Positions 1 through 34,768 of a DNA stretch of 64,000 nucleotides are shown one piece after another. Below the pieces are notes generated by a model. The model was not told the origin of the DNA, did not search any database, and saw nothing but the letters and a program-made list of their open reading frames with translations. The position numbers were made by a program, and so were the translations under genes. Source of the DNA: Amoebophrya sp. A120 (Eukaryota; Protista; Dinoflagellata); the NCBI GenBank assembly GCA_905178155.1, contig CAJINV010000002.1, forward strand, positions 4,955,709 to 5,019,708, written 5' to 3'. How positions within the stretch are numbered: position 1 is the first letter of the stretch; each line of letters starts with the position of its first letter.

Positions 1-3000
1 AATGAAAACAAATCCGTCCTCGTCTGGAGCACCAGCTTGTCTTGTTTCATCTCTCACTCGACCCGTGTTTGTCGCGACATGATCAACATCCGAGGGCCTG
101 CTTGAAGATGATGTCGCCAGGAACGACGAGGAGGGGCTCTGCTTGGGCCCGCCAACACCCGCCAAAACCGCACCGTTTCCCGTGGCGTTCAAATGCACGG
201 TGGGGTCCACCTCGGCGGTTCTGTCTTGCAACAGGTCCGACAGCCACTTTTCTTTCGCGGTTTCAGGAATGGTGGGGTTCGTGATCGGTTTCCCGACGCC
301 GATTTCCAGTGCTGGATTTGGATTTTCATCCGGTGCTGCAGTCGGCTGCCGCTCGTGGTCCCTCGCCGCCTGCAAATTTTCCCAGTGCGCTTGTCTCGCT
401 GTTTCCAACGCCTTCTGCTGCGCTTTTTCTTTCGCGAGCTGCCGTGCGCGGAGCTGCGATTGCTCCTCCGCGACACCATTCTGTTCCGCTGCGTCCTGTT
501 CTCTCTGCTGCCGCTGTTGCTGCTGCAGCAGGATGTGCTGCTTCAGTTTTTCCTGCATCAGCTGCTGCCTCTCAAGCTGGAGTTGCTGCATTTTTTCCTT
601 GTCTGCGTGGTTCATCTGCATGACAAAGGGATCATCCACAAGCGAGGACTGCTGTAGCCCCGATTCTCGTTGTTGCTCGTGGTTAGAAGTGGCAGAGAGT
701 CCAAGGAATTGTTTTGCTCCTTCTGGAGGCGTTACATACGACGAAAAAGATGTCGCGCTGCCTCGGAGCAGCGAAGAGGGATCTTCATCCCCCAAGGCCA
801 ATAGCTCGCTCTTGTTTTCTTCCGCATCAGCTGCAGCTGTGGTGGCTCGGGCCTGCTGTAGCTGCTGGAGTTGCTGCGCGGCTTGTAACTTTTCCCCTTG
901 CCGCAGCGGGTGCTGCAGCTTTTGCTGTCGCAGCATCTTTTTCAGGTAAGTCGTGCTGTAGCCCGGGTACTGTTCGTGGAGCGCTTGCAGCTGCTGCTGT
1001 TGCTGCGTCGACTGCGCCTCCTGCTGGGCCGCTTCTTGTCGCTCCTGTGCACCGCTTATCACTTTTTCATCTCCGCCACCGAATCGCTGATCTTTCGGAA
1101 CGGCCCCTTCCGGCAAAAGTTCCGTGTCGGCCAAGGGCGGGGTTTGGGGGAAGTCTTCTCGTTCTTCCGCCTGACTGTCATCATGATGCCCCAGCAAAGG
1201 CGTAGTTTGCGCCGGGTCTACTGTGTGTGCTCGTTCGAACGGCGTCACGTGCCGTTCCGCGGCTTGCTGCGCAATCGCGTCTCTCGCGCGTCCTTGCTCC
1301 GCGAGTGCAGCCTGCGCGATGGCTGCCCGCAACGGGTAAGAGCCCTCTCCACCTGGAGCTGGAATCTGCATAGTCTTCTCGTCCGCTGCAGTCGCTGCTT
1401 GGGAGCTGACGCCATGATGCTGCGTAGGGTCGCTGTGGCTCGGGCTCGCGTTCGTGGCGTCGTTGAGCGGGTCGGCGCCGGGCCTGGGGTGCAGTTGCGC
1501 GGCAGCCGGGAGGCCGAAGATTTTTTGCGGGTGGGCTTGTTGGTATTCTTGCAGCTCATCTACTTCCGCTGCAGGCACAGTTCGTTGACCTACTCCGGCC
1601 GCCGCAGCGTCTGCACGTCCACTCGCGTTCTCGTCCACTGCCGTTTGAATCTGTTGCAGAATTGCGTCCGCCTCCTTCTGCGCAGCTCTCTCCGCTTCCG
1701 CCCGCTCCGCCTCTTCCTGCTCCTGCTGGCGCTTCCACTCTGCTTCTGCCTCTTGCCTTTCTTGTTCCCGCTGCGCTCCTTCCTCCTTCAACTTTTGTAG
1801 CTTTTCTTGCTCCAGTCGATTCTCCTCCCCTACCTTCTTCCCGTTCTGCGCGGCCACCAAAGCCTCCCGCTTTCCCGCGGCGGAATTGCGCAGCCGCGCT
1901 TTGTCTTCTTCCTCTCGTTGGTGGGCGTCCTGCTTTTCCTTCGCGCGGACCCGCTCCTGCGCCTGCCCCGCTTTCCGCTTCTGGTGCAACTTACTCCCCA
2001 AGTAAAGCGCCCCGCTCCCGAGCGCAGTTTGAATCGCGTGATTCCGCATATCCACGTTGTACTGGTCCACGTCGTGCTTGTGAATCTTCTCCGCCTGCTC
2101 CTGCACCACTTTCCAGTCATGCATGTCCATTATACCATCCTTGCCTGCAAATTTTTTGAACTCCTTATCCTGTGTAAAAACGTCCCCAGCCCAGGGTTGT
2201 CATTTTCAAAGGCCAAGGGCAGGGCGTCCCCAAGAAAATTCTTGTTGTCATGCAATAAAGGGTGCCCACCCCAGAGTTGTCATACAAATTAATTTGCATG
2301 CTTCTCATGTTTCTCATGCGGAGCCACATGAGAAGCCTTTTCTTGTCGTGTTGTGGAATTTGTGAAACTGAAACCGACCGAAACCACAAACGCGCCTTGC
2401 ATGCGATGCTCAAATCAAAACGATATGCTAGATGTGCCAATGCAATGTTGCTGCACTAGCTAAACAGGATTAAATTACGAGGCCACGCTTGTCATGCGCA
2501 ATACCCAAAGCTGATTGATTTGTCTAGCAGCTTTCCCATCTTGATTCTGGGGTGGGGACGTTTTTCCTCAGGATACTCGTCTTCTTGGATGTCATCATCG
2601 TTGTCCGTGTCGAGCACCTATGCATTGCAAATATGTCTGGGTCGGGAAAGTTATGTATGCTGGAAGTGAATGATATGCGCACTGCAATACGCAGCCAAAG
2701 AACATGACAAAGTTTTGGGCTGCCGTGTCTTCCGTATCCCGCTCCCGCATGACAAACTGCGTTTTTGCGTGACACGTAAGCGGGCCTCTTCGTCCACACG
2801 CATCACGAAGTTTCGCGTCATGTCAGATATGCGCGAGGACAAATCTAGCAATCTTCCAGACCCAAACATATTTGCAGTTGATAGCACCCGCCACAGGTCG
2901 GAACCGACTTCCGGCCGGAGCCAGCCAAAGTTACGAAACTTTTCATAGCTGACGGTGCGAGCGTCCGCTGCTCTCAGATCCTGCGCGCTCACATGCTCCG

Positions 3001-5814
3001 CGATGTGGTCTGAATCTTTTTCGTTGACAATCCCATCATTGTTTATCCTGTGTAAAAACGTCCCCACCCCATAGTCATGATGGGGGCTTTTTACTACGCA
3101 AATCCGCAAGAATTGGGCGTTGCGCATGACACAATTCTGCTCGCAGTATCGTCGTGTTTAGCCTGCGCAGTCGCATCACAAATTGATCGCATTAATCTGA
3201 TTCCAGCATGACAAACTCTCAGATAGCATGAAAAAAGTAGAACGTCTGAGGTTTGTTGATTTGCGTGACAACTTTGGGGTGGGGACGTTTTTACTTGGGA
3301 TAATGTTTGTATCCAAGTTATCTTGGACCCGACTCGCCTTCTCCAGTTCTTTCGTGTCCAGCATGTGGTCGTGGTCTTTGTCAGCAAGCGCGAGTTCGTT
3401 GTCATCCACCTTCCCATTCCCGTCCATGTCCAGCTGGTCCGTCAATGGGGATGTGCTAGGGCCTTGCGCCAGTGCCTTGTGGATGTCGTCCATTGACTGT
3501 TCGTGGTTCAGAGCATCCAGGATCTTCTCGTTCTTCATGGCAACCACGTCCGTTTTGTCAAATTCCCCGTCGTTATTGGTGTCGAGCTTGGCCATCATGT
3601 CGTCGCTGTCTGTGAGCCCCAGTGCTTTCAATTGGCTGGGCATCAGCGCGGCCTTCCGCAGCTCGTCTTTGTCGACTTTGTCATTGTGGTCCTTGTCCAA
3701 AGCCTCAATCGCATCGATGGCGTCTTCCCGGTTTTGGTGATGCTGCGCTAGCCTTTCAATCTCCTTCAGAAACTCATTCCGCTCATCGGGATCCGTCGGA
3801 ACTTGATCGCGCGCGTCGAATGTTTTGTCGTGGTTGGTGTCCAGGATTCCCGTGATGAAATGTTGGTCGTCTTGGGCGTCTCTGCTTAAAATCCTCTCCT
3901 GCTTGTCCTCGTCGAACGAACTGAACCGCTGCACCGTTTATCAAATGCAAATATGTCTGGGTCTGGAAATTTGCGATGCTGGGCGGCGTATCATGAGGAG
4001 GCCACAAATGCTGGCCCAGCATGACAAGTTTTTGAGCTTCTAGGTGTTGCCTATTCTGCATGACACACTGCGTTTCTGCATGACAGAAAAATGGGGCTCT
4101 TGGGTAAAATGCATGACAGATTTAAGAGTCATGCCAGACAGGCATGACAAACATACACTCTTCCAGACCCAGACCACGTATTTGCACTTGATACCGCTTC
4201 GAACCGGTTCTCCATGATCCTCTGCTGGTGCAAGAACTCATCTTCATCGACCCTGCCGTCGTGGTTAGTGTCCACAGCGTCAAAGTCAGCTTTGCTAACT
4301 GCCCCGTCACCGTTCGTGTCAAAGATCGAAATTGGGTAGTCGCCATCGGCATCCCACTTGACTCCCTCCACTCCTTCCTCTTCCTGCTGCGCAGAAAGAA
4401 AGGAATCGTAGAAAGTGTCCCAGGCTGAGTGCAACCCATCGGGGTCCAGCGGATCTTCCTTCTGCCAACCCGGATCCATGGCCCCCAAAAAATGGTTTTC
4501 GGCCATCTCCTTCCCCTCTTCGGTCTGGTCTGTCGGCTCGAACGGCAGCTGCGGGTCCCAGTGTGAGAGCACTTCCGGCACGTGGATGTGTTCAAACGGA
4601 TTTCGAATAAAACGTTTGTTCCTCTCGACGCTCGTCTTCTGCACTAGAGACGAGCTTCTACTTCTTCTATCAGACGAGTTTGGAGGCTGCGCCCGTGTTG
4701 AAGATGTGACAACTGGTTGTACAGGAGCGCCGTTGCTTGATGTTGTACTCGGGGCGGCGCCGTGGTCCTCCTCGTGGTTTTCTATTTTTTCTTCTTTTCT
4801 TGCATTATTATCACTGCCTCCCACGTCGATGTGGCGGTCCGTGTCAAAATCCTCTTCCTCTTTTCCCACCACTACCGCGAAGCAGAGTTTGGACAAAAAG
4901 GTGTTGGAGAGGACAAGAAGCACGAGAAGAGCCCCCGTAAACGTGCAACCGCTAGTACCTGAAGCGGGTTTTGGTGTCGCAGTCGTGCTCGAGCTGCTTT
5001 GCTTTCCCACAGAAGGCCTGCCCTGGAACGAAGTCAAAGTTGCACAGCTTAGTTGGTGCTGCTCGACATCAGAAGATGTCCCTTTCTTCCTTCTCCTTGT
5101 TCTGCAAATGAACAAGTCCTTCTTCAACTGCTGCTCTGCTACCTCCCCGGTCGATGAAGTCCCGGCGGCCCGCGGCTTCGTAGTTTTCCGCGTTACAGAA
5201 GCTGTAATATCCCGGAGAGGGTCCTCAGCGCAAAACGGAAACCGTGGTGGTGTGGCCGACGTGTTCTTGTACTTTTCCATGCTTAGCAGTTTTATGCGAC
5301 GGGAGCAAGAATAAACTAAGACTGGTCGTTCTTGTGGTCTCGACGTGCAGCACGAGAGACGAGTATGCCGCGTGGTGTAGCCATTACCGCGCAGCGTGGT
5401 CATGGAGTAGTTCTTCTTTTTCCTCATGTAGCAGTTTCCACACGCGGAGGACTGCTGGGACAGGGACGACATCAAAGAGTTTGACTTGTCTTGACCTTCC
5501 GTCGAGTTGATGTAATTGCAGATCATGCGGCTTCTACAACAAGATGAAGAACTTCTCCCAAGGACAACTGGAATGGCCCCTCGTCGTGGCTCCTGCAGGT
5601 TCTTGCTCAAAGATGAACCATCGTGTTTTACTTGTGTCACTGCTGAAAATGACGTGGCGCAGCTGCAGCTCGACGAGGAGGGCGCACTGGATGAAGAAAA
5701 AGAGGCCTTGACATTATTTGGCCAGCAGATCATGGTCGGTGACATGCTCCTGGGACCACAGAGTGCCACTTCGTCGTCACGGTCTACCCAACTGCGGGGT
5801 CTAAGCTCCACCAT
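1..5814 (-). CDS. Large multi-EF-hand Ca2+-binding protein with a hydrophobic signal/TM segment and C-terminal coiled coil; 4 introners; runs off the left edge
   Basis: ORFs 4129-5862, 3176-3934 and 2651-3127 plus an open frame from 2165 to 1 join in frame once the elements are removed. About 9 EF-hand loops (DTNGDGAVSKAD, DTNHDGRVDEDE, DMDGNGKVDDNE, rebuilt DTNNDGIVNEKD, DTDNDDDIQEDE). Start ATG 5814 is uncertain. Confidence 0.75.
2166..2575. mobile_element. TIR introner, family B
   Basis: TATCCTGTGTAAAAACGTCCCC...GGGGACGTTTTTCCTCAGGATA; 5-bp duplication ctcct/ctcgt; removal gives ...QEDE-FKKF. Confidence 0.9.
2619..2883. mobile_element. TIR introner, family A
   Basis: TATGCATTGCAAATATGTCTGGGTC...GACCCAAACATATTTGCAGTTGATA; TSD gcacc/gcacc; GT-AG reading is possible for this one. 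Confidence 0.9.
3044..3302. mobile_element. TIR introner, family B
   Basis: Family B TIRs; TSD ttgtt/atgtt; removal rebuilds the EF-hand loop DTNNDGIVNEKD. Confidence 0.9.
3939..4193. mobile_element. TIR introner, family A
   Basis: TATCAAATGCAAATATGTCTGGGTCTGGAA...TTCCAGACCCAGACCACGTATTTGCACTTGATA; TSD ccgtt/ccgct; joins FEAV-QRF. Confidence 0.9.
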
Positions 5815-5974: not shown

Positions 5975-7125
5975 CACATACATAGTGCAAGTTTTCGCGT
6001 CACATACTCGTACAACGCCGGACTCGCTTCGGCCAAACAACACCTCCTGTTCGAAAGAGTTATCACTCACTGCTCACGAACGACGGTACGAGCCCGAGAC
6101 CTCCTCAAAAATCCCTAAGTGACTCCCAGAAAAGTCTGACCACGTGTTTGCTTTGTTGGCACAACGAGAAAAAGAAGAACGCCATTCAAGTCACAATTCT
6201 TCAGAAGACAGCACGGCGGGTCTGCGGCTGCAACGCCGAGAATGGATGTTGCTTGACTTCTTCGTAGAAAAAGACTTTGTCAAAGATGTACATTTTTGAA
6301 ATATTTTCTCCTGATCAGGACCTCGCGACTTCACCTTCAAGATGGTAGACTACCACCGTGAATCCAACTCTGCCACAATTAATCTCCCTGAAGATGATCT
6401 TGCAAGAGAAACTATTCTTCTTGTAGCAACGCCGCACTGTATTCTTCAAAAAAGCATTCTTTCTATATTGGCGATGTTGCCACGACAAAGACAAAGAAAC
6501 AACGTTAAAACTATGTGTCTGCCTACTGCTGGCGCTGCTCCTGCTGCAGCACAGAAACAATAAGTAAATAATCAAACGCTGGTGCTGCACGGCCTCATGG
6601 AAGCAAAAAAGTTCGGGTTGCGAGAAAGAAGCGCACGGTAGCCAGTTGCGAGGTGCTGGAAAACGACCAACTCACTACTTTGTAGCTTTCAAGTAACTAA
6701 TCCTCTTCCGGCACCGGGCGCGCCGTACTTGTACTCGTCACACCAACGAAGACATCGCCGCTGCTACTCCCCCCCGTTGTAGTTCCAATCGGCCGCAGCA
6801 CTGGCCTCGTTGGCAGTGTCAAACCCTTCGGCGAGGCAGACGTCCCTATCAAGATGAAACATGTCCCCCCTCCCCGTATCCCAAACAAAATTTCCGACGC
6901 TGGAGGATCGATTTGCGTACACAGATACGGTCTGTCTTGCGGTAAGGAACTGTAGTCACATCATAATTCTCAGCCTGTTTAACAACGTACAGGTCAAATA
7001 AACACCTGCCCTATAAGCTTCCCAACGGCATGGCAAACGCCTCCGCAATGCGGGGCGCACCTCCGTACTGGACTTCTTGCAAGAATGTGATGACAAATCT
7101 GCATCACACATTTTCCTTTTGGGTA

Positions 7126-9130
7126 CTATGAGGTGGGACGTGGATTTTTCCTCACGATAGGCCCGGCTCCACCGCCACTGGTATCATTCACCGCAGAGGA
7201 GGAGGACGGGGTCGCCGGCAGCTGCCCAAACAGCGGCGGCGGTAGTGGGACAGAGGGTACAACTGCTTGTCGGCTTATTGCAGCTGTCGTGGGGAGCGGA
7301 CTGCTACTGTTAATCAACGTTGTGCTAGTTGTTGAAGGTCTCGACGGCGCTCCTCCGGTAAGTGATCCAGCACCTGCTGGTGCGCTATTGCTACTGCTAT
7401 AATTGTTCTCTCCCGATGATGTACCGGAGTTTTGCCTGCTGCTCGCACGCTGGGCCATTTCGTTTTCGACACAGTTTTTATTTGGCGTGTCATTTTCTGT
7501 ATTGTTTGCATTCTGCTCCCCAGGTGTACTCACCACGTTCAAGTCGCTTCTGCAAATTGGGCACGAACTCGCACGTTGGAACCACTCCGCGCAGCAGTCC
7601 TTGTGAAAAACGTGCTGGCACCGGGGGAGCTTGCAGAGCGTCACCGGTATCAAATGGAAAAAGCCCCCCACCCCATATCGAAAACGAAATTTGTGACGCT
7701 GTATTTGAGTACACAAATCGACTTGTAATGCTAGAAGGCGAAGAGCCGCAGTTGTGGCCTCGTTTGCAGGCAATTTGTCATGCTGTTTCCCACTTCCAGT
7801 TGCTTCCTGTCATGCTGAAGATGCAAGGCTTCCCCACGCCACCCAGCACTACAGTCCGCATCTTTTCCCTTCTAGCATGACAAAGCTGATCTGTGACTGC
7901 AAATCTGCATCACTGATTTCCGTTTTGATATGGGGAGGGGGCTTTTTTCACTTTGATAACCGGCTCCCCGTCTTCGAAGAGCTCGCCGCAACAGATCGCG
8001 CATGTGTGCCCGTCGTCGAGGGAATCCTGCGGATTTAATATTTAGATCACATTCATCATCATCATCATCATCATATTCAGACCTCATACTTGCTTCAAAA
8101 TCATTACGTCTAGCACTCAAGACAAAAAGGCTCTGTCGTCCTAGTTCTAGAAGTACATATTTATACCCATGAAGATGCGAAAAGGTATACAAAATATGCT
8201 CGACAGCACGACAACATCAACAAATACCGTAGCCGCGCTCCCCTTCAAGAACGCATCGCACTCTGCCTGCGTTGACACTAGCCTAGTTTCGATACTGTCC
8301 CACTGCGTTGCTTTCAAAGGATCGATGTTTGAGGGTGTGCCGCTATTGTTGCCGTACGCGGTTGTGGCAACAACATCTTCCTCCTCCAACAAATCCCGCA
8401 TGGCCGTGCGCATCGACTCGGCGGCGCGCAGGTGGTTTTGTAGTTCCCGGAGCAAAACCTCGATTCGCATCTCGCCCACCTGGATCCGCGGATGGCCGCG
8501 CCTGATAGTTGATAGTTGTCGTGTGGTTTCGGTTTGCGCATGATGTTGCGGACAAAAATTGTGTATTGTTTTCTACTGCGCATGACCAGCTTCAATTTGT
8601 ACTTGCCACTACTTAAAAATGCAAGCTTGTAGTAGTCCTCCCTTGATCAAAAAGCTCAAAATTTTTGAAGATCGTAACCGACTTCTACTATAGGTACTTA
8701 CTCACCTTCCCCCCAGGCTGTTCCCTCCCTCTTCCTCCTCGTCCCCCGCCGCTGCGTTAGTACTATTTCCTGCCGCCTGTCCGCGCTGCATTTGCGCCAG
8801 ATGGTGGACCGCCTGGAGGGCGTTGAGTAGTGGCATCGGTGGGGTTTCCTGCAACAACATGGTTCCCTCCTCCACGAACCCACCGCCGCAGCTGTTGCAC
8901 AGTCCCTGCTCATTCAGATTTACCGCCTGGTTGCACTCGTGACACCAGTGCGTCCCCCGCTGGCGGTTTGGACTCGGCGGGCCCCCGCCGAACCGGACGA
9001 CCTGCTGCAGCGCGTGGTGCGCCGCTGCTCGGTGCTGGTTGCTACCACGACGCGAGCGGCGGGAACTGGGGGAGGTCGGGACCGCCCGATTTTGGTCTTC
9101 CTCCCGATTGTTCGAGAGGCCGCCCCCCAT
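7126..9130 (-). CDS. RING-H2 E3 ubiquitin ligase with N-terminal zinc ribbon (RNF115/RNF126-like architecture)
   Basis: HWCHEC...CNSCGGGFVEE zinc ribbon. RING CAIC...CQHVFHKDC..W...SCPICR is rebuilt across introner 7648-7958. GT-AG introns at 8705-8502 and 8227-8027. Confidence 0.88.
7648..7958. mobile_element. TIR introner, family C
   Basis: TATCAAATGGAAAAAGCCCCCCACCCCATATC...GATATGGGGAGGGGGCTTTTTTCACTTTGATA; TSD accgg/accgg; splits the RING domain. Confidence 0.92.
8052..8074. repeat. (TCA)n microsatellite in a canonical intron
   Basis: ttcatcatcatcatcatcatcat. Confidence 0.8.
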
Positions 9131-10858
9131 GGTGCGAGGCGAATAGATTTAATATCAGGGGGTTTTATTTAAGCTCTGTGGTCGGGAGGACCATCCACGG
9201 GGATTAGTTTTAGATAGTAGTCAAGTTTGTATGCCGGAGAAGTAAAAAAGTATTTCCAAATCAGCCGTCATGTAAAAAATCGCGGGAGATGAAAGAGGGG
9301 TAGAGAGTATTCATTGATCGAACAAGTATCAAAATTGAAAATTATAGGCTTCTAGGGTAGGCTTTTAATAATTGCCAATTCAGAACCCCAAAATCACCAA
9401 CTTGCATCAGAGTTGTTGAATTTAGGCTCCGAGTTTCGGTATTTTTGAGTGGAACATGAACAAGAGGGCCAAGACTGACAATTGATACAGCTGCTAAATG
9501 CGTCTCTTGAACTCAAACGGCAAAAAAACCCTTCGCAAATTGTTGAAGTAGTGCGATGGGAAGTATACTGAAGATGTAGTTGTAGATGACGTGCTCGTAG
9601 CTCATAAACAACCGCCTGGTAGTGGTAGTCGTGGTTGCGCCGGATATTACTACGAATCACTTGATTCTACTTCTAAATAACTACTAGCTGTCAATGTCTA
9701 GGAGGCTGGTATATATAATTCGAGGGGTTACCCCGGGCGAAAAACGCTGAACAAGCTTGGTCTGTACACTAGAGGCACTGTCAGTGTTTGGAGAAAAATT
9801 TGGAGAATATTATACTTTTTCATGCAACCAAGCTACACGATCTACGTCCGTGGTGTGAAAGAAAACGAAAAAAACCGAAAGCACCTTTTTGCATCTCTCG
9901 TCTACTGCTCGCGCAAGACCAATTCAACACAGGGTTCGATTCTTCGCTTTGATACTAACTCTCTGCTTCCGACACGAGCTTAGCTTCGCTGCCTCGAGAG
10001 CTACCGAAAAAAAGTTTGCAATACGAAACCGAAGTCGTTGAATTATGCTTATGGTGGCGCAATTTCTTTTTCTATACTTGTACTTAGATACAAACCGCTG
10101 CGTTCGCGACTCAAATACAAAGCCGTACGTAGAAGTGCCGTCAAAACACAATAGCAAAGATTTTGGGCAGTCCAAGTTTGCATTTGGAGGAGCACCTAGT
10201 GCTTATGGAAAAAAAATGGTGCTGCTGCGCTCTTGACTGTAGTAGTAGTTGGCGACGTCGTTTTTGAGTATCGCAAGAGGTTCATAATTTGCATTTTCTA
10301 CAGTGTTTACTGCTGTCTTTTTCTTTATACAAGAAACGTGATACACGAAGCACACCGGCGTGAGACTTCTCCGACTAACGAATATTCATCATGTCAAACC
10401 TCACAAATTTGCAACACACACGCTCTCCATACGAGTTATCGTGATTAAAAAAGTGTGAAAGCATAGTCCCAAAAAGTCCGAAGCACGCGTAGAGGGCGTA
10501 CGCCACGATTTGGCACCACGTCTAGTGGCACGTACCAAACAACATACTTCGCTCATCAAGACGTCCTCGTCGCTTACGATAAACTATATTCCCATAGATG
10601 CTACAATATTTCTACGTTGATGATATTATTCCCGTTTACGTTTTCCCAGAGACAGAAAGAAAGAAATTATCTCGCAGAAGAACTAGTGTAAGATTGATCG
10701 ATAGTACTTGAAGCAAAAAAAAAAACGGATTTATTTCCTGAATGCCTGAGCCTCAGGATAGGGAAATGAAAATGAATTGCAAGAAGCAAAAATCGAAACC
10801 GTCGACACTGCAGCTACTCGGCCCGCCGTATAGTACAACCGGCTTGATGCATTTTGAC

Positions 10859-13800
10859 CTAAGTATGTCGGCCGACCTCGGGTCTATCAGCCCCGCATCC
10901 ATCGCTGACCAAGCGCAGAGCTGCCGGTGTCGACGGCGGGCATGGCGGGGCGTCGGATGGTAGATTCGTCGTTTTCAAAAACTTTCCCCGCCTTGTGAAC
11001 GAAACCACGGACGACGCGTAACCCGACCTCGGGGTGTTATCCGGCACGCGTGGCGTGTCGCTCTCCACGTCCGAATCACACTCGTCATAATCTTCATTGT
11101 TGTCCGAAGATTTTTGAGCAGAAAAATGGCGGTCGAGGTTGTTGTGCTTGCTACTTACGTCGTTCTTCTTCCGGGATGTTGAACTACTACGACGACCAAG
11201 CGGGCGCTGAGACGCTGTTGACCTTGCGTGTTTTTCTGCTGCTTTTTCCTTTCCTTTAGTACTTTCGCTTTCGGTTCCTCTTTGCATAATTTGCTCAACT
11301 ACCACGTTCCCATCCGCCTCGGAAATAAACACCTCCTCGTCCTCTTCGTCGGACGCGGACGACTCCGTTTCATCCATTTCCGACTGACTTGCTGTGTATC
11401 CGCCGCCCCGGTTCGCACGGAAGGAGCGCTCGCCCGGCGTACTGTTCCCCGCCGAGTCTGCAGAAGCTGCGCTCTTAGCAGATCCCAACTCCTTACTGGA
11501 AGAAGAACTCGGCTCACCGCCGGTTTTGAAGACGTAACTCTTCTCAACATTTGCAACGCCGAAGCTGATTGTGTCGTGCCGGCCCTGCTGGTCTTTGTGT
11601 CTCACGAGCCGGAATTCCGGGGCGGAGGCGCTGTTGTTAAGGTTCTGGTGGTTTTGTAGGTCGGGGAAGTTGTGCATTTGGCGGTCAACATCTCTGTGGT
11701 TTACATCAAGTGCTTTGTTCTCATGAAAAACATCGGCGTTGTCGTCGTGATGAAAGTTGTTATGATAATCTTCCTCATTATGCTCTTCGTCTACCACCCC
11801 CTTCATCACCTCGCCCCGCCGAAAATCATGGTCTTGATCCTCATCCTGCAAAGCGTGAGGACCACGCCGGTCTTGAACAAAGAAACGGCGACTGTTACAA
11901 CTGTGCGCCGGAGACGGAGATGCCGAGGCACCCTGCACGGTCGTCATCAGCGTGTCCCGATGAAAAGTTCCGCCGTGCTCCAATGCCCACGCCTGCATCC
12001 GTTGCACCTGTTGCTCGTACAGCTGGTTTATAACAGTGCACAAGAACTCCCCCTCCCCCTCATCTGTGAAGATGCAAAATCCCCAATAAGTTTGCTGCCT
12101 TGTGGCACTGTTTGCATGACAAATCCCAGAAGCCCAAACAGTACTACTTACACTCGGCCCCTGAACTTGTCATGCACAGGCTCCACGTGTGTTGGTGTTT
12201 GTATTGCTGCGCATGCCATGCAAATGAGGGGAAGGGGAGTTGTGCACTCTCGTATGGTTTTCCCGGCTTCGTTTCTGGATCGTCATCCACTTCTCCACAA
12301 CGCGGATATCCCCCAGAAAAAAGCGGGAAGGGCATATTTTCTTATTCGTAACTCCTATATGCAAAACTACACAGTACGCAGAAACACAAACATCTCTCAT
12401 AGGCACGGGCACGCGCTGCAGATCCCTCTACGTGCCGCGTACTATCTACTTCTGCGACACAGAGATTTTTCCCTGCCAGCTTTTTTCTATGGGATAGCAG
12501 AGGAACAGGAGCAGCGTGAGGAAAAGAAGAAAAGTGAACGCGGCGAGACCGACAACGGCGCCGTAAAACCAAACATGGGGCTTGGCTTCCTCCCAGGATT
12601 CGGAGATCTGTATATAAACATAGAATAAGCGTTGGTTTCTAGCATTGATAAAGAGAATCCCTATGAAACTACGTCGCTGCACAGCAGCAGATTATAGAAG
12701 ATCAACGCCTGATGCTAAAGAAAGAACAACGTGACGGGACAAAAATTTTATACGTAGACTTTCACCGGCGGCGAGATCTTTTCCCACGTGAGCAGTAACA
12801 ACGCCCACGCTTCTGCCTCGTCGCGGGATTCCAAAGCGCATCTTTTTCTGATTATATCCGCTCGCCACTGCACGGCGCTGACCGCGAGGTTGTAGGCTTT
12901 TGGGTGAACAACATCCGGCGTTTGGTGTTGACTTTGGTCCTCCGCGTTGCTGTTGTTCTCTCTACCACTTCGGGCCTTTGACCTCGCTTTCGACTTCGAC
13001 CTCGACCGAGTGACACCGTCATGGACCTGCTCCCCAGCGGTTGTAGTTGTTGTTGTGCCATCGCCGTTTCCTTGTCCTCTTTGTCTCGTCGCGCTGGTAC
13101 TACGAGTAGCTCCTTCGACCTTGTTTGTTCTTCCCGTAGCATCGCCGTCTGTTTTCTGATTTCTCGCAGTCACCTCACCGTCAGGAACAGGAGCCTCTTC
13201 GCCATCAATACTGGCGAAAGAGGAGGTGCGGGACAACCTGCCAGTCGCGTCTACGGCATTAGTGCTGCCTGGTACAACCACCCCTGGCGTTGTACCATCT
13301 CCCCCTGTCCTACGCGCAGCGCCTGCTCCAGGCGTCGCATCACTATTAGTAAAAATACTAACCGGCTCCCGGGTACTAGTTGCTTCTTGTGGTGGGCTCC
13401 GAATCAAGTCTGGACTTGGCGTGGCACTGGCGCTTGCGTGGGACCCGTTCTGCCCGCGCATGGAAACGGACTCCTCGGATCCGGAGCGTGACATATCTGT
13501 GGAACTAGTCGGATTATTAGCGCCAGCCGTGGCCGCAGAGTTCGTTCCTGGCTGGAATGAGTTTTTGCTCTGCAGCCGCTGCAGCCTCTGCCCGACCTTG
13601 TCGGCAAACACGCTGTACGATAGCTGCTCGTTGATAAGACGCGGATTTAACATCTCTGGTGGAACCAGCGCTGAGTCTACTTCACTGGGCGAGGTTTGCT
13701 TGGAAAACTGTCCGGGGGAGGCGCTTACAGAAGCAATACCGTCTGCTGCTTGCAGCTGCTGCCGCCCGTCCGGCGGAATAGCAGCACCTTCAACGGCTTC

Positions 13801-20300: not shown

Positions 20301-23300
20301 CCTTGATCAGCCTCCTCTTTCTCCTCCACCAATTCCCCCTCTTCCCACGGATCCAAACAGTTTCCACTGCCCACTTCCAACTCACTCGTGTAATCGTCCG
20401 TCTGCCCGTAGTATCAAATGTAAAAATGTCTGGGTCTGGAAGATTCCGAGATTTGCCATGCAGTTTTTCCAAGCTCCGCCAAGTCTGGCATGCAGGGCCT
20501 AGCATCGCAGGTTCTGCAGCCCCTTGGTGATGCACAATATGCATGAGAAATGCCCTCTCAGCCTCAGCGTGGCGAGAAATAGGGACCTTTTGCAAGTCAT
20601 GCAACACAGATTTTTGTATGATCCGCAACACGCATCACAAGTTCGCATTCTTCCAGACCCAGACATTTTTGCATTTGATACGTAGGGTCCCCCCAGATGG
20701 TTCGACGTGTTGTTCCCACTAGTTCCAGGCATCAGCATCATCTGCGGATTGTTTGGGTCAAAATTCTGGACGTCCAGACCCTGCTGACAGAGGAAATCAA
20801 ACAGCATCTGCTGCTGGTTCGACCAGTCGCTGGTATTATTTTCTTGTTCAGACGCAGTAGGCAGTGCGGGTTGTTGTAGTTGTTCCTGCCGCTGGCCGGG
20901 ATCTGCTTGACCTCCGTTCTTTGGTTGATTATTCGCATGGGGAGCTACATTATCCTCCGGTTTCAAACAATCATTGATGAAATCTAAATCCTGCTTCGAC
21001 AGCTCCTTGTTCTGATACTCCGTCTTCTGCGAAGATGCTGAACCTTCGTCCTTCAAATCGGCGAGAAATTTTGTCAATTCGTCCTCTTCCTCGACTTCTG
21101 TGATAGTTGTAGGAGTTTCTAATACTTCTTCCGCCTCACTGGTCGCCATCGCGTCCACCTCCTCGTCCTCTGATGGCTTTTCTAGACGAGCGAGATTAAG
21201 CACCTTCCGAGTAGTTCTATTGCTTGCCGACGAAGGAAGATCGCCCGCGGATGTTGAACTACCTGTGCTCGCAGTAGCAGCGGATGAAGAAGCTACGACT
21301 GACGGCTGCACTAGCAACTGTTCATCCGGCGCAGCGGCTGCTGGAAGGGGGATTACCGATATTGAACTAGACGTCGCAGTTGACTGGATTTTCTGTGGTT
21401 TCGGTCCGGTGAGAGAGATGATCTTTCCGCCGTTTTGGTTCTCATTCGTCACGTTGTTCTGTTCTTTTGTACTACTAGTTCCCGCTTTCATGTTTTTCTT
21501 CTCCTCCATCATCTCCCGCTGCTGCAACAGCGCAATCAGATCCTCCGGCGTCAACTGGTTCCAGTCGATCCCGAGGAAATTGGGCTCGAACGAATCCTCC
21601 TCTTCCTCCTCTAGAAAATCCAAATCGTCGGAATCCTCCTCCTCCACCTCTTCTCCGTTCAGCTGCGCGGTTCGTGCCTGAATACTCGGCGGCGCCTCGC
21701 CCTCGTCGTAGTTCTCCGCCCAGGAAACAGACCGGTTGGTTTTGTTGGAAATAGTCGACTCGGTCTCGGAACAAACTACTGGTGCTGCGGACGTGGATTT
21801 GGTTTTGGAAATTTCTATATCGGGCGTTGATGTTTTTATGGCAGCCGCAACATCTTTTGCATTTTTGGTGCTAGTTGGGATCTTATCTGATGAGGTGGCT
21901 GAGCTGGTGGTTGAGATAGGAGCTCCTGCGGTAAGGACGGTCTCTGCCGCGGCAGCGCGGGCGGCGGGTGGTTGTTCTCCTGGAGGACTCGCATTACTAG
22001 TAGTGGAACAAGGAGGTCCTTCTTTCTTCAATATCTTCTTCGGCCGTGAGGGAAGAACAGGCTGCTCTTCCGAACGACGTGGAGCAGGTTGCTCTTTACT
22101 AGCGGCACTTGCCTTCGTCTTTTCACAAACAGCAAGCTTGTCGCCCTCTTTGTCCTGCACGACCTTAGCTGCAGCTTCTTTTTCATTCTCTTTTCCTTTC
22201 TTGTTATTTTTCTCAATTTTGTTCTTGCTCCCCTTCTATCAAATGTAAAAATGTCTGGGTCTGGAAGATTCTGAGACTTGTCATGCATGTTTTGCCTGGG
22301 CCATGATGTCTGTGATGCATACCCTAGCATCACAGATTTTTTGAGGGCCCCGCGATGCCTATTCCGCATGACAAATGCCCTCTCCGCGTAGCAAAAATTA
22401 CACTCCCTTTGCTGCTCATGCAATAGAGATTTTTTTGGAATCCAAATTCAGCATCACAAGTTGCATTCTTCCAGACCCAGACATTTTTACATTTGATACC
22501 TTGGAAGCCGCCCCCATACAGATCCGGTCGCATGCGTCGAGCAGGTCAAAATCGATCCCGTCAAGCATCAGCTCCTTGCCGAGTTTTCTCTTTTTCTTCC
22601 GCGAACTTTCCTTGTTGTTTGAGATCCCAAGTTGTTTTTCCAAATACTGCAACTCCTGAAGCTCTTCCGCGGTGTACAGCCCTCCGTCGTCCCCAGTGGT
22701 CAGCATGTTCTCGAATTTCTCTAAATTTTTGCCGTCATCTACTTCCCCATCATCAAGACCGAATCGTCCAGGCGTTACTTCATTACTTCCCTCGGAACAA
22801 CTACCGTCGGACTCAGCATCGCTGAGGGTTGTACTATCTCCAGTGGCAGAAGGCATTTTTTGCTTGCTCTGCTTCTTCTTCTCAGCGACAGAAGTAGTTG
22901 CGTTTTTTGCATTCTTACTGTACTCCGCCTCCAATTCCGCCAAACTTCGTCCACGTTTGTTACTGGAAGCAGCGGTTGATATTTCTGTTTCCTCCTTCCC
23001 CGCAACTTTCTTTTTGCCCTTCTTCCCTTTGGCGACGATATCGTCGCAAAAAGATAGGAGATCGTCGTCAAACCCGTCTTCTTCCATCTCTTTTAGCAAT
23101 TTCTCCTGCCCCTTCCCTTTGGACAGACCCAGCATCTTCTCCAGATACGCCAACTCTTCGGCGTCTGGGTCGTAAGACGAGTCAGGGTCCTCGTTTTGGA
23201 GGTCTTCATTGCTTATTCCTGCATCAGAACGTCCCTCATCCTCGTCACCTTCCGACGGCGCGGAGCCCGCATCAGAATCTGAATCCTCGGCCTTCGTAGT

Positions 23301-23777
23301 TTCTTTCCGCTGTACCTGGCTCGGGCTCGTGTTCGAAAGCTTGGTAACGGTTTTTTTTCTACTACTGCTGTTTTGCTGTTCGACTTCTTCAGAGCTATCG
23401 GCGTCTTCCACAACAGCGGTCTGTTTCTTCGTTGAGAAAAACTGCTCCCGCCTTTGCTTCTTTTCCATGCGCTGCTGCTTTCGAACTTTTTTTCTGTCGA
23501 CCGGCTTGGTGCTCTGAAAAGCATTTATTTTACCTCCCGCTGCATTTTGTGGTCTAGAACTCGCGACGCCGCTAGGATTCCCGTCATCCACTTGCTCTTG
23601 GTGTTTCTCGAAGACTTCTTGCGTCAAGCCCCGCAGAAGTTTCCGATTCTGCTTCGGCGGCTGGTTGTTTTTGGAGAATTTATTTTTCCCCTTTCCCTTT
23701 CCTTTGTTCTGCCCTGGCTTGCCTTTACCGCCTTTGCCGCCACCGCTTTTGCCTTTCCCTTTACCGCCACCGCCCAT
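17363..23777 (-). CDS. NOM1: Nucleolar MIF4G + MA3 domain protein (NOM1/Sgd1), 2 introners
   Basis: WVPPHLRK...LQGLLNRLSEGNL (MIF4G start); LAKEQRLATDSKRSVFVAL...VVIHC...FNPFY (MA3); Lys/Gly-rich N-terminus; three ORFs join in frame. Confidence 0.85.
20412..20680. mobile_element. TIR introner, family A
   Basis: TATCAAATGTAAAAATGTCTGGGTCTGGAAG TIR; TSD cgtag/cgtag; joins GGPY-GQTDD. Confidence 0.93.
22237..22498. mobile_element. TIR introner, family A (262 bp)
   Basis: Family A TIRs; TSD ccttc/ccttg; joins AASK-GSKN. Confidence 0.93.
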
Positions 23778-24715
23778 CGTGGTCGTGATCGTGCGGTGTT
23801 GATATGTGATTGCACTATTGACACGCTTGCTCTAGAAGCGACTAAAATTGAAAGACATGACTGAGATTTTTGTGTCGCTAAAAGTATTGAACGAAGCAAA
23901 GCAGTCACTCATCACCCTAAAAATTTCATGCAGTGTTGAAACGCTGCTCAGCCTATCGCTAGTTCTTGTTTTGCCTGTAGAACTAATATTGAGTACTTAA
24001 ACTATACATGCATTCCAAATTTCATCACGTGTCTGCGTCCTGATTTGAGTTTGACAAGCAAAAAAATGCGGATCGGAACTGCATGGAGCCAAAGACCAAT
24101 CAGAGCGCTTGAATTTCTCACGACTCTTCATCTGCAGATCCCTTTCTTCACCTGATCACGCTCTCTTGTCGTGTACAACTGAGATCGCTTTTGATGCTGT
24201 GCGGATCCTTTCAACAACTTTTTCGACGATCCATTCCAATTACAGATGATCTTCAAGATCTTCTCGCAAATAGAAAGTCAGAACTCTAGTATCCTGCACT
24301 TTCGTTGCAGGGTAATTATTGCATTTTTCATTGCCTACTCTTAATTTTTGCGCCTATTGTTGTAGTTCTGTATGATTTTTACAATCAAACCTGTACAGGG
24401 ACTTTGCGTTTGTGTGAGATTCAGCTGTTCCTCCTGATCCACTCAGAATGTGCCTATTTCACTGACAATCGAGACAACCCTTTTGCAAAAAGTAGATAAT
24501 GATATATAAGTGTAGTTTTGAATGTTTTCAGATTTAACAAGTGTAGCAGAAGCGACACGACTTCAAAGCGTGTTCAGCATAGACGTTTTCATTCTCGAAT
24601 TTTGAAGATTCGATTGCATTCTGTAGGCAGCTCTTTGACGTTGTGCAAAGGCAGATAACCTCAGTTTCACAACAACATCAGGGAAAAACGTGCACTACTA
24701 TCTACTTAAGTACTA

Positions 24716-26524
24716 TCACTCCATCAATTTCCCATTCACGATGCCTATCTTCTCCAAAAACGCACTATCCTGTGCCTGCAGCAATTTTTCTGCTTGTTCG
24801 GCGTTCCCTAAGATCGCTTTGATCGCTGCGTCGGCCCGGATGAACTCAAAATGCTGCTTCTTTTCCAGGTCCATCCGCAAATTCTTATTCCGCTGACACA
24901 GCCTTCGACTGTCTATTCCTCTTTGCCGGAGCTGCTCCGCGCGGTCCCGCTGGATCCGCTTCAGGAGGGCATTCAACGCCTTGTTCTGCTGGGCCCGGAG
25001 GCGCTGCTCTAGCCTCTGCACCTGGTCTACGGATTGCGAGGCGTACCTGTTGGTTTTTTTTATCATGGTGGTATACTTAAAGAACGGCGCGCCGCGCACC
25101 AAAAAAAGCTGCTCGCCACCAGCGTCTCCAAGAATGAACCTCAGGACGACGAGCTTCATCAACGTACAAAAATACGAAAAATCACAGTGTCAATCAAAAA
25201 CTGATACTTCGCTATCTCCCATTTCTCCAGTCTATCGGCCTGGTCCTTAACTTTCGCGGCCTCTTCGTACTGCCCTTGCTTTCCCAGCGCCTTCTGTCTC
25301 CTCCGCAGTTCCAGTAAATCCGGCGAAAACTTGCACACGCGCGGCTGGGTCTCCATGTTTTCTGTCAACTGCCCAAACTGCTGGGCATGCTGCTCCTTCA
25401 GCTTTTCCAGTGACATGTAAGCGGTGGATTCGTAGTCGGCCATGTACCTGAGCACAAGGTTGGTGATCGAGGTAGGATGACAGTGACAGCACATGCAGGA
25501 AGCAAATTTCTAGTACTTACTTTCGTCTATATTTTTCGCGTCCCCCGGACAAAAACTACATATTTTTCTTGCGATAGGAGTAGTATTCCAAAGTCTCAAA
25601 GGACCACGAGAACCTGAAATATTAAGAAAGTACCTATCCCATGCCGCTGAGAACTCCATTAGCTGCTGTTTCTGTGCCGCCTCTACCTCACTCATTTCGT
25701 GGACCTGGGCCTGCTCGATCAACCGCCGCTGCCGCACCGTTTCCTTAAACCTGAGAAATAATGTCGATGAACGTCCATGTTGTAAAAATGCTGCGCAGTA
25801 CAATAATACAAATTCAAGAGAAGAAAATGTCATTCTTTGGATAGTGACAAAAATCCCCGACTGCACACTGCCCACTCGTCACACAGCACTGCAAAAAGTA
25901 GTACCTTAATTCGTCGTATTTTGTTCTCGCTTTTCTTGCTTCCCCATAATCCCCCTTCAGTTCGCACTGTTTCCGGTACTGCTCTAACCTCCGCATCAAT
26001 GCCAGCGGCGTGGTGATTTTCTCGAATCCGCCTTTTTGCTCCACGTTTTTTAAAGCCGCGATCACATCCTCAAACCCGGCTTTGGTGCCGGCAAGAGTTT
26101 CGTTCTCCGTGTGTCTAACTGGTGAGGTACTGGAGGACGACTTTGTATTGGGGGAGATCATGCTGGACGCCGGATAGGGGTTACAACTACTTGCATTTCC
26201 TATTGTCGCGCTGCTCACAGGACCTCCTCCCTGCACTTCCTTCAGATATTTCACCACCTCGTGCGCTTTCGTCACATCCCGGCCTAAATCCACGAGCAGA
26301 TTCGGTATTTCGTCGAGCAGAACAGTGCCGTCGTTCGCCTTGTCATATTTCGCAAACACCGACTGCAAGTCGTCGGCTGTGGAGGCAGGTGCGTGTTGGT
26401 AGGAAGCAGGAGATACTGCAGTCGACGACGTCCCAAGTGTTTTACTGTTCATGCCTCCAGGCCGTGGCGTGGTCGAGGACGACGCTGAGGCGGCCTGGAT
26501 TGGCCCGCGGGCGGACTGACTCAT
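24716..26524 (-). CDS. Coiled-coil protein with N-terminal EF-hand-like motif; canonical introns only
   Basis: Exons 26524-25905, 25750-25634, 25447-25208 and 25046-24716 join in frame with GT-AG introns; FAKYDKANDGTV motif; helical Q/E/K/R-rich body. Confidence 0.75.
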
Positions 26525-28115
26525 AGTGTCCTGGTGGTGCGCCCGGGTTGCGATATTAACACAGAAAGTAGTACTTAAGTAGCTAGTAGGGTATACTTTG
26601 AAGATAGAAGTCCCTTGCAAGGTGCACCAGAAGGTGGAAGATACTAGCAGGGGTACGTCAATTTACGGGGGTCGTGAAATGAAGGTAGTACATTCCAGTG
26701 CAAAAAAAAACGCTTTAGCCCGAATCGAACCTATACCTAAAAATCAGATGAAGTGCGGCAATAAATAATGGCTCTTGATGAAAAGGTATGCTCTAGTTCA
26801 TAACATCCCCTGTAGTGTGATCATGACATCATGATAGGAACCACAAAAAAAAACGGCCAAAAACATCCGAACAATCACAATCTGCCACAACGAAACGAAA
26901 AAAAGACAAACTCCCCCAAGAAAAAACGCCAAGACGACAAGGACGAAAACGACTCCAGCATCCATCGTGACCGATTTTGCCGAATAGCGAATGCGAATGG
27001 CGCTGATCCAATAGCAAAAAAAAGATGAGAACGACCGTGACGAACGATAAGCCAACGGAAAAGAACTCATTCCACTTTGTGAACCGATGCACGACGAATC
27101 CATTGCCCGAGTGAGAGTAAAGGTTAATTGCCTGCACAAACGATATGCGCGCTGCCAATAGCCCCGCACCGAGTGGTGCGCAACCCCTTTTCACGCGAGA
27201 CAAAAAACAAACGACGAAAGACGACAAACCACAGCAAATACCATTAGAAACTACACCGCAACGAAAAACTAAAACTGCACAAAGCCAAAGAAACAAAAAG
27301 AAGAAACAACCAAAACGCGAAACGAGACAACGCGAACGACAAGAACCGCGAAACGGGCACCACGACAACGGAAGAAGAAGCCGACGACGAGGAGACAAAA
27401 ACCACGACAGTCAGTACATAAACGCAAAAATCACAGAACGAAAACAGCACGAAACGGAGACAAGAGGTCCGACGTGAGTAGTGAAATTTCACAGAGAAAC
27501 CAAAACGCAAGCATACCGACGAAGACGGGGACTGTACGTGAAAGTATTGATCTGGACTGCGCGCACCTGCCTCTTCAGTATGCGGCTCCTGTCCTCTCGA
27601 CCGACAGACATATAATACCCTCACCAAAACTAGCCGCTCACTCCACGAGGATCTTCGGAGCCACAAAGCCACGCTCGCGAGGCCGCTCACGCTCATCACT
27701 GCACCGGTCCCATAATTTTCTTGTCTGGGCAGACAGCTCTAGCTATTTTTCTAGGATACTACTAATATTTGCGCTACTAGGATAGTGTACTGTCAAAGAT
27801 AATTTTGGTTTCTACTAGCGATAAGCCTCTTACTCCAAAATGAAATTGCGCTGAATTTCCATGCATGTGTTACAAGGGCGTGTTTACGGTATAGAGTTTA
27901 TCACAATCAAAATTTCCTAACCTCGGAAAGGGGTGCGAATACTGCTCGGCTGTCGAACTAGAAAATGAACTAGAGTCAACAACTTAGACTTAAGCATATA
28001 AACCAAGCATGTACATAGTATGATCGTTCCAAGAAGTAAATCCTACCCTGTGGAAGAAGTTAATCTTTTCGACCTGGTTCTTCATCGCTACTAGCAAGAC
28101 GCTTCTCGTCCCTCC

Positions 28116-31786: not shown

Positions 31787-32764
31787 TTACTCTAACAATA
31801 ACCTGCATTCATCTTCGCCTTCTTGTGGATGTGGGTCTGTTTCTGTTACAACGAAAATGAACTAAGTAATTTTTTCCGGGTGGGTAGTTCTTGTACTATA
31901 TGGTTCTAGATCAAAAAGGAGCTCGGAAAAAGTGCTACAGCAGAAACTAGTGAGTCAACGTAGAAGTTGTGGACCACCTTGGAAGTAGGGTGCTAGCCTC
32001 GTCAAAAGACCTGCTTGCTTGATTTTCAGTGTTCTGCTCGCATTCTTTCTAAGTTGCAGGTTCACGAAATAACAAAACACGACTTTAGATGAACCAGAAG
32101 TAGCTGAAGACGCAACCAAGAACGCTTGTGATCATAGATCGTACTGGACGAAGCAACAAGCGAAGTTGAACGACAAGTTTCAGCGATTCTTGCGACCAAG
32201 CGCCTGGAGCTTTTTGCACGATGAAAAGTTTGAACGACTTCGTTGATCACGAGTTTTGAACGGTGTCAGTACGAGGCACTGCAAATTATCGGCAGTAAGG
32301 AAGAGCCGGTGAACGAACCGAATCGTAGCTTTTTCTGTTTCAAGAACGGCAGTGTCTAGCAGTTCAGCGCTTTTAACTTTTTTTGGTGAACGAAAATGCG
32401 CGAGCAATAAATTCCATATCCAGGTGGACGAAAACGCAATTCTTCATAGGTAATTCTGCACATCGAGCATCATCGATTCCAAACGAACGAACAGCTTTCT
32501 TCCGAGCTTTGACAGGACAGAAAAACGTAAAAAAACGAGGCGCATGCGCTAGCTCGCAACTTGTAATATTTTTCATGGTCTCACCCCGAGTGGTCTGTCA
32601 GGAGCAGCTTTCCTGTGCATCGGTGCAGCACAACCACCATCGTGCTTGTTTTTCTAGTTTCCACATTCATCATCCAAAACAGTAGTGTACAAGCATAATT
32701 CATCTCCCTGTCATCAGAGTACATGCCTCAACATTCCAAACCTGGTACATATGAAACGAAATTT

Positions 32765-34657: not shown

Positions 34658-34768
34658 CTACGGTGGAGCTGCAGAACGCATTGATTTCGGCGCAAGGAGC
34701 TCAATGGTGTCTATAATTCGTTGAAATTGCTGTGGCTCTAATTTTTTTTCGAAGAAGAAGTTTCGAAT

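What the first reader, a model, noticed from the sequence alone, without database searches (positions are those of the whole stretch)
7643..7963. Most junctions cannot be GT-AG however they are slid within the 5-bp duplication
Seen: sliding the junction through the duplication in transcript orientation gives GT-AG for only 3 elements (2619, 22237, 51452), GC-AG for one (48305) and GA-AG for two (2166, 59248). The other 21 or so, such as CCGGT here in the RING domain, have none. The duplications share no consensus. The same genes also carry ordinary GT-AG introns. Inference: two removal logics coexist, and one is guided by structure or geometry rather than dinucleotides.
Basis: partly seen in the sequence, partly recalled or inferred. 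Interest (0 to 1): 0.85.

Follow-up and report, generated by a model that had tools for sequence, protein, structure and literature searches.

The report
Known hairpin introns lacking splice signals
Small hairpin-shaped transposon copies interrupt the genes of the marine parasite Amoebophrya and are missing exactly from its transcripts although most have no normal splice signals; this was published in 2021, and the new point here is that the cut likely falls at one fixed distance from the hairpin.

Summary
The window encodes an Amoebophrya sp. A120 protein letter for letter. Its 28 TAT...ATA hairpin elements with 5-bp duplications are the non-canonical 'introner elements' of Farhat et al. 2021. 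GT-AG is possible for 3 of 28, about chance (1.1 expected, p 0.09). Two RNA-like runs lack the 7648 element plus one duplication copy while also splicing GT-AG introns of the same gene, so junctions do lie inside the duplication. Added here: duplications whose two copies differ bound the cut. Four sites keep the upstream copy, which argues against a reverse-transcriptase artefact and excludes the one near-canonical option at 6847. With a fifth, inferred bound, all fit one register: intron = N-TAT...ATA-NNNN. That is only five sites (chance about 0.06). Whether a relaxed, U1-independent spliceosome or a separate enzyme cuts is untested; 'two machineries' is not shown. The scan noted similar hairpin introns before in other protist genomes.

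The parts
7643..7647 (-). 5-bp target-site duplication, downstream copy in the transcript (CCGGT)
7648..7958 (.). Introner element (non-autonomous TIR transposon copy), TAT...ATA ends, folds as one hairpin; sits inside the RING-H2 coding sequence
   Evidence: removal with one duplication copy from record coordinates
7959..7963 (-). 5-bp target-site duplication, upstream copy in the transcript
6248..9779 (-). Host gene: zinc-ribbon + RING-H2 protein (open frame of 470 codons); exons about 8705-9779, 8227-8500, 7959-8025, 7160-7642, 6248-6841
   Evidence: (X3 record 12, X6 record 14), Pfam
8027..8227 (-). Canonical GT-AG intron in the same gene (donor GTAT)
8502..8705 (-). Canonical GT-AG intron in the same gene (donor GTGA)
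6842..7164 (.). Element 6847-7159 with mismatched duplication (GGGCC / GGGAC in transcript); RNA keeps the upstream copy, so register 4 or 5; its only near-canonical option (GG-AG, register 1) is excluded
2161..2580 (.). Element 2166-2575, mismatched duplication; register 2 or higher (one side of the joint seen)
2614..2888 (.). Element 2619-2883, perfect duplication; GT-AG possible at register 1 only
3039..3307 (.). Element 3044-3302, mismatch at the last duplication base; register 4 or lower inferred from the EF-hand loop, no RNA evidence
3934..4198 (.). Element 3939-4193, mismatched duplication; register 2 or higher (one side of the joint seen; paralogue residue agrees)
12024..12259 (.). Element 12029-12254 (TAC start in transcript), perfect duplication; removal fits RNA contig length and the A120 protein
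12302..12501 (.). Element 12307-12496, mismatched duplication; register 3 or higher from the annotated A120 protein
12608..12753 (-). Canonical GT-AG intron (donor GTAT)
20407..62516 (.). Twenty further elements, starting at 20412, 22237, 28498, 29263, 29616, 30101, 30749, 40568, 41278, 43754, 44176, 44563, 48305, 48626, 51452, 54349, 55081, 58908, 59248, 62250; each interrupts a minus-strand reading frame that reopens on removal; no RNA check

Best explanation
These are the Amoebophrya A120 introner elements: copies of small inverted-repeat transposons, each flanked by a 5-bp duplication, that are absent to the base from RNA-like contigs, likely because they are cut from the pre-mRNA at a position measured from the hairpin rather than read from GT-AG, probably by a relaxed U2-type spliceosome. 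Shown: anatomy, exact loss of element plus one duplication copy, no canonical pair available for most, both orientations present in coding sequence. Inferred: insertion by a cut-and-paste transposase making 5-bp duplications; a fixed register in which the intron is the last duplication base + TAT...ATA + four duplication bases, so that every intron starts N-U-A-U and any target site is restored; pairing of the two ends standing in for U1, as the internal pairing of spliced-leader RNA does; catalysis by the U2/U5/U6 core with loosened checks on the terminal G residues.
For: Organism: window splices to a protein identical to A120 protein P0002, 860 of 860 residues. Ends match the published A120 motif, TAT + 7 variable + AAA. 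Removal of all 28 gives long minus-strand frames, e.g. 1975, 1761, 1558 codons. X3 and X6 contigs (two samples) join 6841 to 7160 and leave 67 letters between 7642 and 8227, exactly exon 7959-8025 (383 if the element were kept). Register bounds: 6847 at least 4; 12307 at least 3; 2166 and 3939 at least 2; 3044 at most 4 (inferred); only register 4 fits all. Families in both orientations: 26:11, 8:6, 6:4, 4:4, 5:2. Hairpin z -10.6. For a spliceosome: 83 of 89 spliceosome proteins and U2/U4/U5/U6 found, U1 not detected, minor snRNAs absent (Farhat 2021); 2 of 3 confirmed canonical donors are GTAT; at register 4 the last base is G in 49 of 118 against 38.0 expected (p 0.019), introns are phase 0 in 59 of 118 (p 5e-4), and GT-AG is possible in some register in 11 of 118 against 5.4 (p 0.02); Fritillaria precedent.
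Against: Only five sites bound the register; one bound rests on a gene annotation, two on one side of a joint, and the only upper bound on protein plausibility; a uniform random register would pass all five with probability 0.06. No G enrichment at intron +1 (33 of 118 against 37.7), AG at the register-4 acceptor not enriched overall (13 against 10.0), and the G at -1 is one of ten tests. The 5' and 3' ends have the same profile, so no end-specific donor or branch-point signal has been gained. The UAU is the transposon end and is buried in the stem. Phase bias fits register 1 equally and may come from insertion preference. Farhat's Fig. [quoted passage not shown] No lariat, circle or knockdown data were seen.
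Confidence: 0.55

Rival explanations
1. Same elements and geometry, but removed by a spliceosome-independent route: a structure-specific endonuclease cuts beside the hairpin base and an RNA ligase joins the exons, as proposed for euglenid nonconventional introns.
For: No requirement for G at either end; symmetric ends; both orientations work; whole-element hairpin. U1 not detected in A120. Euglenid hairpin introns leave as full-length circles (review).
Against: Weak excess of G at -1 and of GT-AG-compatible sites; invariant U+2 A+3 at the inferred register; near-complete U2 spliceosome, and 15% of A120 canonical introns share the IR/DR layout. No candidate enzyme could be sought: no genome was held.
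Confidence: 0.25
2. A relaxed spliceosome cuts at a variable register inside the duplication, choosing whichever position is most like GT-AG; there is no fixed ruler.
For: GT-AG, GC-AG, GA-AG, GG-AG or AT-AC is available for 9 of 28; modest excess of GT-AG-compatible sites; Farhat reports variable positions.
Against: At 6847 the only near-canonical choice (GG-AG) is excluded by contigs of two samples; 19 of 28 have no such choice; independent sliding of the two ends would break frames.
Confidence: 0.12
3. The junctions are artefacts of reverse transcriptase jumping across a strong hairpin between direct repeats; the genes are really broken or the elements retained.
For: Strong hairpin plus short direct repeats is the classic setting for template switching (recalled; search found no paper with all four terms). 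All RNA evidence is cDNA-based.
Against: A jump would keep the downstream duplication copy (copied first); all four informative sites keep the upstream copy. Retention would put stops or frameshifts in every long gene, including the middle of a RING domain.
Confidence: 0.04
4. Elements are excised from the DNA in the transcribing life stage (as ciliate internal eliminated sequences are), so no unusual RNA splicing exists.
For: Exact removal of element plus one duplication copy is also what precise DNA excision gives; life stage of the runs is unknown.
Against: In run X1 one contig spans the whole 6847 element without differences at depth 44.6, like its flanks (42-49); RNA-like runs hold element sequence.
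Confidence: 0.04

Closest known systems
Introner elements / non-canonical introns of Amoebophrya sp. A120 (Farhat et al. 2021, PMC7789003)
   Same: Same organism by protein identity; TAT + 7 + AAA inverted repeats, 3-5 nt direct repeats, hairpin, about 240 nt, 65% of introns non-canonical beside 35% GT-AG.
   Different: Nothing in kind. The paper leaves the cut position variable or unknown and the mechanism open; the bounded register from mismatched duplications is my addition.
Non-canonical MITE-derived introns of Fritillaria borealis (Henriet 2019, seen only through PMC11282704 and PMC13326754)
   Same: TIR and TSD, non-GT-AG ends, coexisting with GT-AG introns; removed by a U2-type spliceosome.
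   Different: Fritillaria has dominant AG-AC/AG-AT ends, a TAC target and a conserved U1; here the target has no consensus and U1 was not detected.
Nonconventional introns of euglenids (PMC11282704, PMC11170887)
   Same: Ends paired by inverted repeats set a fixed distance inside the intron, longer unpaired 3' tail, TSD-like repeats, no dinucleotide rule.
   Different: Euglenid stem uses CAG (+4 to +6) with CTG (-8 to -6) and a pyrimidine|purine junction bias; here TAT/ATA at +2 to +4 and -7 to -5 (inferred). Circular excision is reported there, untested here.
Introners of Polarella, Aureococcus, Micromonas (PMC11282704, PMC12130899)
   Same: Transposon-derived repeated introns whose TSD is absorbed by splicing.
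   Different: Those supply or co-opt GT/GC/GA-AG sites; most elements here cannot.

Membership tests
Amoebophrya A120 introner elements | Host is Amoebophrya A120 | tested here: met
   Spliced window frame identical to A120 protein P0002, 860 aa
Amoebophrya A120 introner elements | Terminal inverted repeat starting TAT, 7 variable bases, then 3 or more A | tested here: met
   TAT in 27 of 28 5' ends, A at offsets 10-11 in 26 of 28; motif as published
Amoebophrya A120 introner elements | 3-5 nt direct repeat at the boundaries | tested here: met
   19 of 28 exact, 9 with one mismatch; 154 of 206 exact 5 bp elsewhere
Amoebophrya A120 introner elements | Repeated families | tested here: met
Amoebophrya A120 introner elements | Removed from transcripts at non-GT-AG junctions | tested here: met
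   6847 directly; 7648, 12029, 12307 by record lengths; 2166, 3939 one side; other 22 by frame only
MITE (non-autonomous TIR DNA transposon) | TIR, fixed-length TSD, short, multicopy | tested here: met
   (element depth thousands of times the flank in X1)
MITE (non-autonomous TIR DNA transposon) | Autonomous partner with transposase and the same ends | not testable with these tools
   No genome held; no transposase family among 26 ORFs scanned
Canonical U2-type intron | GT(GC)-AG ends | tested here: not met
   4 of 28 can be GT-AG or GC-AG in any register
Canonical U2-type intron | Branch point and 3' signal distinct from the 5' end | tested here: inconclusive
   TGAT near the 3' end resembles a branch motif (consensus recalled) but is the mirror of the 5' end: A at offset 4 in 80 versus 75 of 122
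Canonical U2-type intron | Lariat intermediate, snRNP dependence | not testable with these tools
   Contigs cannot show it; the one raw-read run had no reads on unique exons
U12-type intron | AT-AC or GT-AG ends and minor snRNAs | tested here: not met
   AT-AC possible inside the duplication for 2 of 28; minor snRNAs reported absent
Euglenid nonconventional intron | Paired intron ends | tested here: met
Euglenid nonconventional intron | CAG/CTG stem motif and pyrimidine|purine junctions | tested here: not met
   Ends are TAT/ATA; duplication bases unbiased
Euglenid nonconventional intron | Excision as full-length circle | not testable with these tools
   no suitable reads
tRNA-type (bulge-helix-bulge) intron | Exon-intron pairing forming a bulge-helix-bulge | not tested
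   Only one element was folded with flanks; no Rfam match in the window

The most novel reading that the evidence does not exclude
Amoebophrya A120 removes tens of thousands of transposon insertions with a ruler: the hairpin base fixes the cuts one base before TAT and four bases after ATA, whatever the terminal dinucleotides and in either orientation, so a U1-less spliceosome (or an unknown endonuclease-ligase) turns any insertion with a 5-bp duplication into a perfect intron.
Probability: 0.45. Interest if true: 0.7.

Novelty: already known. Interest (0 to 1): 0.35.

Why it matters
The phenomenon is published for this organism, so the finding is a rediscovery. How these introns are cut is still open. 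The practical gain is a cheap test: duplications whose two copies differ by one base (9 of 28 here, 34 of 188 elsewhere) reveal the true cut in existing RNA-seq. If one register holds, the 'no clear splicing signature' of Farhat's Table S4 collapses to a single rule, the intron ends become defined for lariat and circle hunting, and it would show how splicing can be freed from GT-AG so that a transposon family spreads through exons at little cost.

Tried and rejected
No whole genome was held, so snRNAs, Prp8 paralogues, ligases and autonomous transposons could not be searched. Run X11 (raw RNA reads, same species label) laid only 21 reads, all on repeats: uninformative. The joint table was filled by repeat noise from X1 (15 of 428 rows shown); junctions were read from the piece table instead. 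Direct RNA evidence at 3044, the one site that gives an upper bound, and for the 20 elements beyond 20.4 kb was not obtained. Searches for the window's own annotated EF-hand protein returned only a paralogue. Using the direction of duplication mismatches (GC to AT) to tell the intronic copy was considered and dropped: 12307 contradicts it. Enrichment of canonical bases gave only weak or no signal. Of 206 TIR pairs from other contigs, 18 with two or more duplication mismatches and 1 at a locus edge were dropped, and 93 of the remaining 187 had no confidently coding frame (94 kept; 90 after a frame-margin filter). The orientation caller scored 28 of 28 on the window but was trained on it. Rfam: no match. 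Rejected readings: canonical sites outside the duplication; minor-spliceosome introns; plus-strand genes (all long frames are minus).

Full report
What is at the coordinates. 7643-7963 is a 311-nt element (7648-7958) that starts TAT, ends ATA, has terminal inverted repeats and is flanked by ACCGG on both sides. The strand read as RNA folds into one long hairpin, -155 kcal/mol, z -10.6, 0 of 100 shuffles as good. The window holds 28 such elements of 150-410 nt. All long reading frames are on the minus strand, and removing each element with one duplication copy joins them into frames of up to 1975 codons. At 7648 this restores a RING-H2 domain.

In transcript orientation GT-AG is possible for 2619, 22237 and 51452, GC-AG for 48305, GA-AG for 2166 and 59248. 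Of the other 22, one allows GG-AG (6847) and two AT-AC (3044, 58908); 19 allow none. Three GT-AG cases in 28 is close to chance (1.1 expected, p 0.09), and they fall in three different registers (1, 4, 2). The duplications show no consensus.

Removal is real. Four runs were laid on 1900-21800. X3 and X6 are labelled RNA only by guess, but they skip GT-AG introns and are empty over long stretches, as transcripts are. One contig in each joins 6841 to 7160, ends a piece at 7642, and resumes at 8227 after 67 letters that the table does not list; exon 7959-8025 is 67 bases, whereas retention of the element would need 383. The same contigs skip the GT-AG introns 8027-8227 and 8502-8705. An X6 contig has an unlisted stretch of 158 letters, the length predicted if 12029, 12307 and the GT-AG intron 12608-12753 are all removed. 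So junctions lie within the duplication, and both kinds of intron leave the same transcript. In X1, which behaves as DNA, a contig spans the whole 6847 element at normal depth.

Organism and prior art. An exon query hit one protein, 100% identical, named Amoebophrya sp. A120 by its source; the window's spliced frame equals it in all 860 residues. Farhat et al. 2021 (PMC7789003; I saw the abstract, passages, sections 11 and 25, supplement Tables S4-S6 and figure legends, not the figures) report that 65% of A120 introns are non-canonical, with 8-20 nt inverted repeats starting TAT + 7 + AAA, 3-5 nt direct repeats, 29,850 repeated introns, no dinucleotide signature, 83 of 89 spliceosome proteins, U2/U4/U5/U6 present, U1 not detected and no minor snRNAs. 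They propose an alternative splicing mechanism. Strains AT5 and Kv use canonical sites (PMC12005148, passages). A120 introners include diverse TIR transposons and a TIR family with an integrase-like ORF (PMC12130899, passages). The finding is therefore a rediscovery.

Where the cut falls. A perfect duplication hides the cut, but 9 of 28 have one mismatch. Define register k as the number of upstream-copy bases kept in the exon. From the piece ends, worked out: 6847 needs k of 4 or 5 (both sides seen, two samples); 2166 and 3939 need k of 2 or more (one side seen; a paralogue agrees at 3939); the A120 protein needs k of 3 or more at 12307 (annotation built from transcripts). At 3044, k up to 4 gives an EF-hand loop with N at position 4, k = 5 gives I; the paralogue has Q and the five other loops that the script matched in this protein have H, N or G, so k of 4 or less is inferred. 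Only k = 4 fits all five: intron = N-TAT...ATA-NNNN. A uniformly random register would pass with probability 0.06, so this is suggestive, not proven. Two things follow more firmly. At 6847 the only near-canonical option is excluded. And reverse-transcriptase jumping, which would keep the downstream copy, is contradicted at four of four informative sites (reasoning from the direction of cDNA synthesis).

A larger sample. A pattern scan returned 148 loci from other contigs (organism not determined, no long match to the window). They hold 206 distinct TIR pairs, 154 with an exact 5-bp duplication and 34 with one mismatch. A codon model oriented 94 of 187. GT-AG is possible in 7 of 94 sense and 3 of 94 antisense; 5 of the 7 are at k = 4 (1.7 expected, p 0.027; p 0.08 with a phase-matched null). 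Pooled with the window (118 with a frame call), the base that would end the intron at k = 4 is G in 49 against 38.0 (p 0.019, one of ten tests), the base that would start it is G in 33 against 37.7, and AG at the acceptor is 13 against 10.0. Insertions would be phase 0 in 59 of 118 at k = 4 or 1 (p 5e-4). The two ends have the same base profile, and every family of three or more members occurs in both orientations. So whatever is recognised is carried by the symmetric ends, and terminal dinucleotides are at most weakly favoured.

Mechanism. Shown: anatomy, exact removal, independence from GT-AG, both orientations. Inferred: a transposase inserted the elements with 5-bp duplications; removal takes exactly five duplication bases, one before the stem and four after it; this puts U-A-U at +2 to +4, as in the GTAT donors of two of the three confirmed canonical introns. 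The 3' repeat pairs with these bases, where U1 would pair; internal pairing makes U1 unnecessary in spliced-leader RNA (PMC11170887, passages), and U1 was not found in A120. Fritillaria shows that a U2 spliceosome can process TIR/TSD introns without GT-AG (PMC11282704 section 6, PMC13326754 passages; the 2019 paper itself not seen). I put this at 0.55. Euglenid hairpin introns, which leave as circles by an unknown route, are the model for the main rival (0.25). Nothing here separates the two directly.

What is and is not in print. Searches returned no paper on the cut register or the chemistry in Amoebophrya, and Farhat's main text has no 'mismatch', 'lariat' or 'template switch'. But their Fig. 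3 and Figs S19-S23, which plot repeat positions against splice sites, are pictures that I could not see and may bear on this, and the library lacks most subscription journals. All nine of their most frequent A120 pairs begin N-T and eight end A-N, the pattern expected if an aligner places the cut at register 4 or 1. Earlier notes of this scan describe similar hairpin introns in other protist genomes; I did not test them and they did not change the reading.

Verdict. Observation confirmed; interpretation partly supported; already known for this organism. Interest 0.35, for the still-open mechanism and the simple test that mismatched duplications provide.

Noticed in passing
window 1-5883 (minus): Long EF-hand repeat gene has a paralogue in A120 (P0001, 70% identical over about 1300 aligned residues); X1 shows half-depth differences at 3542-3788 that fit a second copy. 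Comparing element presence between the two would date insertions.
   Followed up: partly
window elements 22237, 41278, 44563, 48305, 54349, 58908 versus 29263, 62250, plus loci L001-L148: The largest family lies 26:11 in one orientation relative to the transcript (p 0.02); other families are near even.
   Followed up: partly
window, inside most elements (e.g. 2746-2832, 4057-4143, 30219-30305): An internal motif of the form GCATGACA recurs many times in both orientations across otherwise unlike families; possibly transposase or protein binding sites.
   Followed up: no
window 29616 and 12029: Elements with a changed terminal triplet (ATT at the 3' end; TAC at the 5' end in transcript orientation); 12029 is still removed, so intron position +4 tolerates C.
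   Followed up: partly
window 4918: A>C difference in X3 contigs (depth 43.6 of 59.4) absent from X1; allele, paralogue or editing.
   Followed up: no
whole window: All long frames are on the minus strand (co-oriented block typical of Amoebophrya). Pfam hits: MIF4G at 17366-20413, phosphatidylserine decarboxylase at 53494-54435, EF-hand at 25817-26662; most other frames have none.
   Followed up: no
window 2576-2613, 12255-12301, 48567-48620: Very short exons (38-55 nt) between adjacent elements; neighbouring elements of one family could pair across the exon and cause skipping.
   Followed up: no
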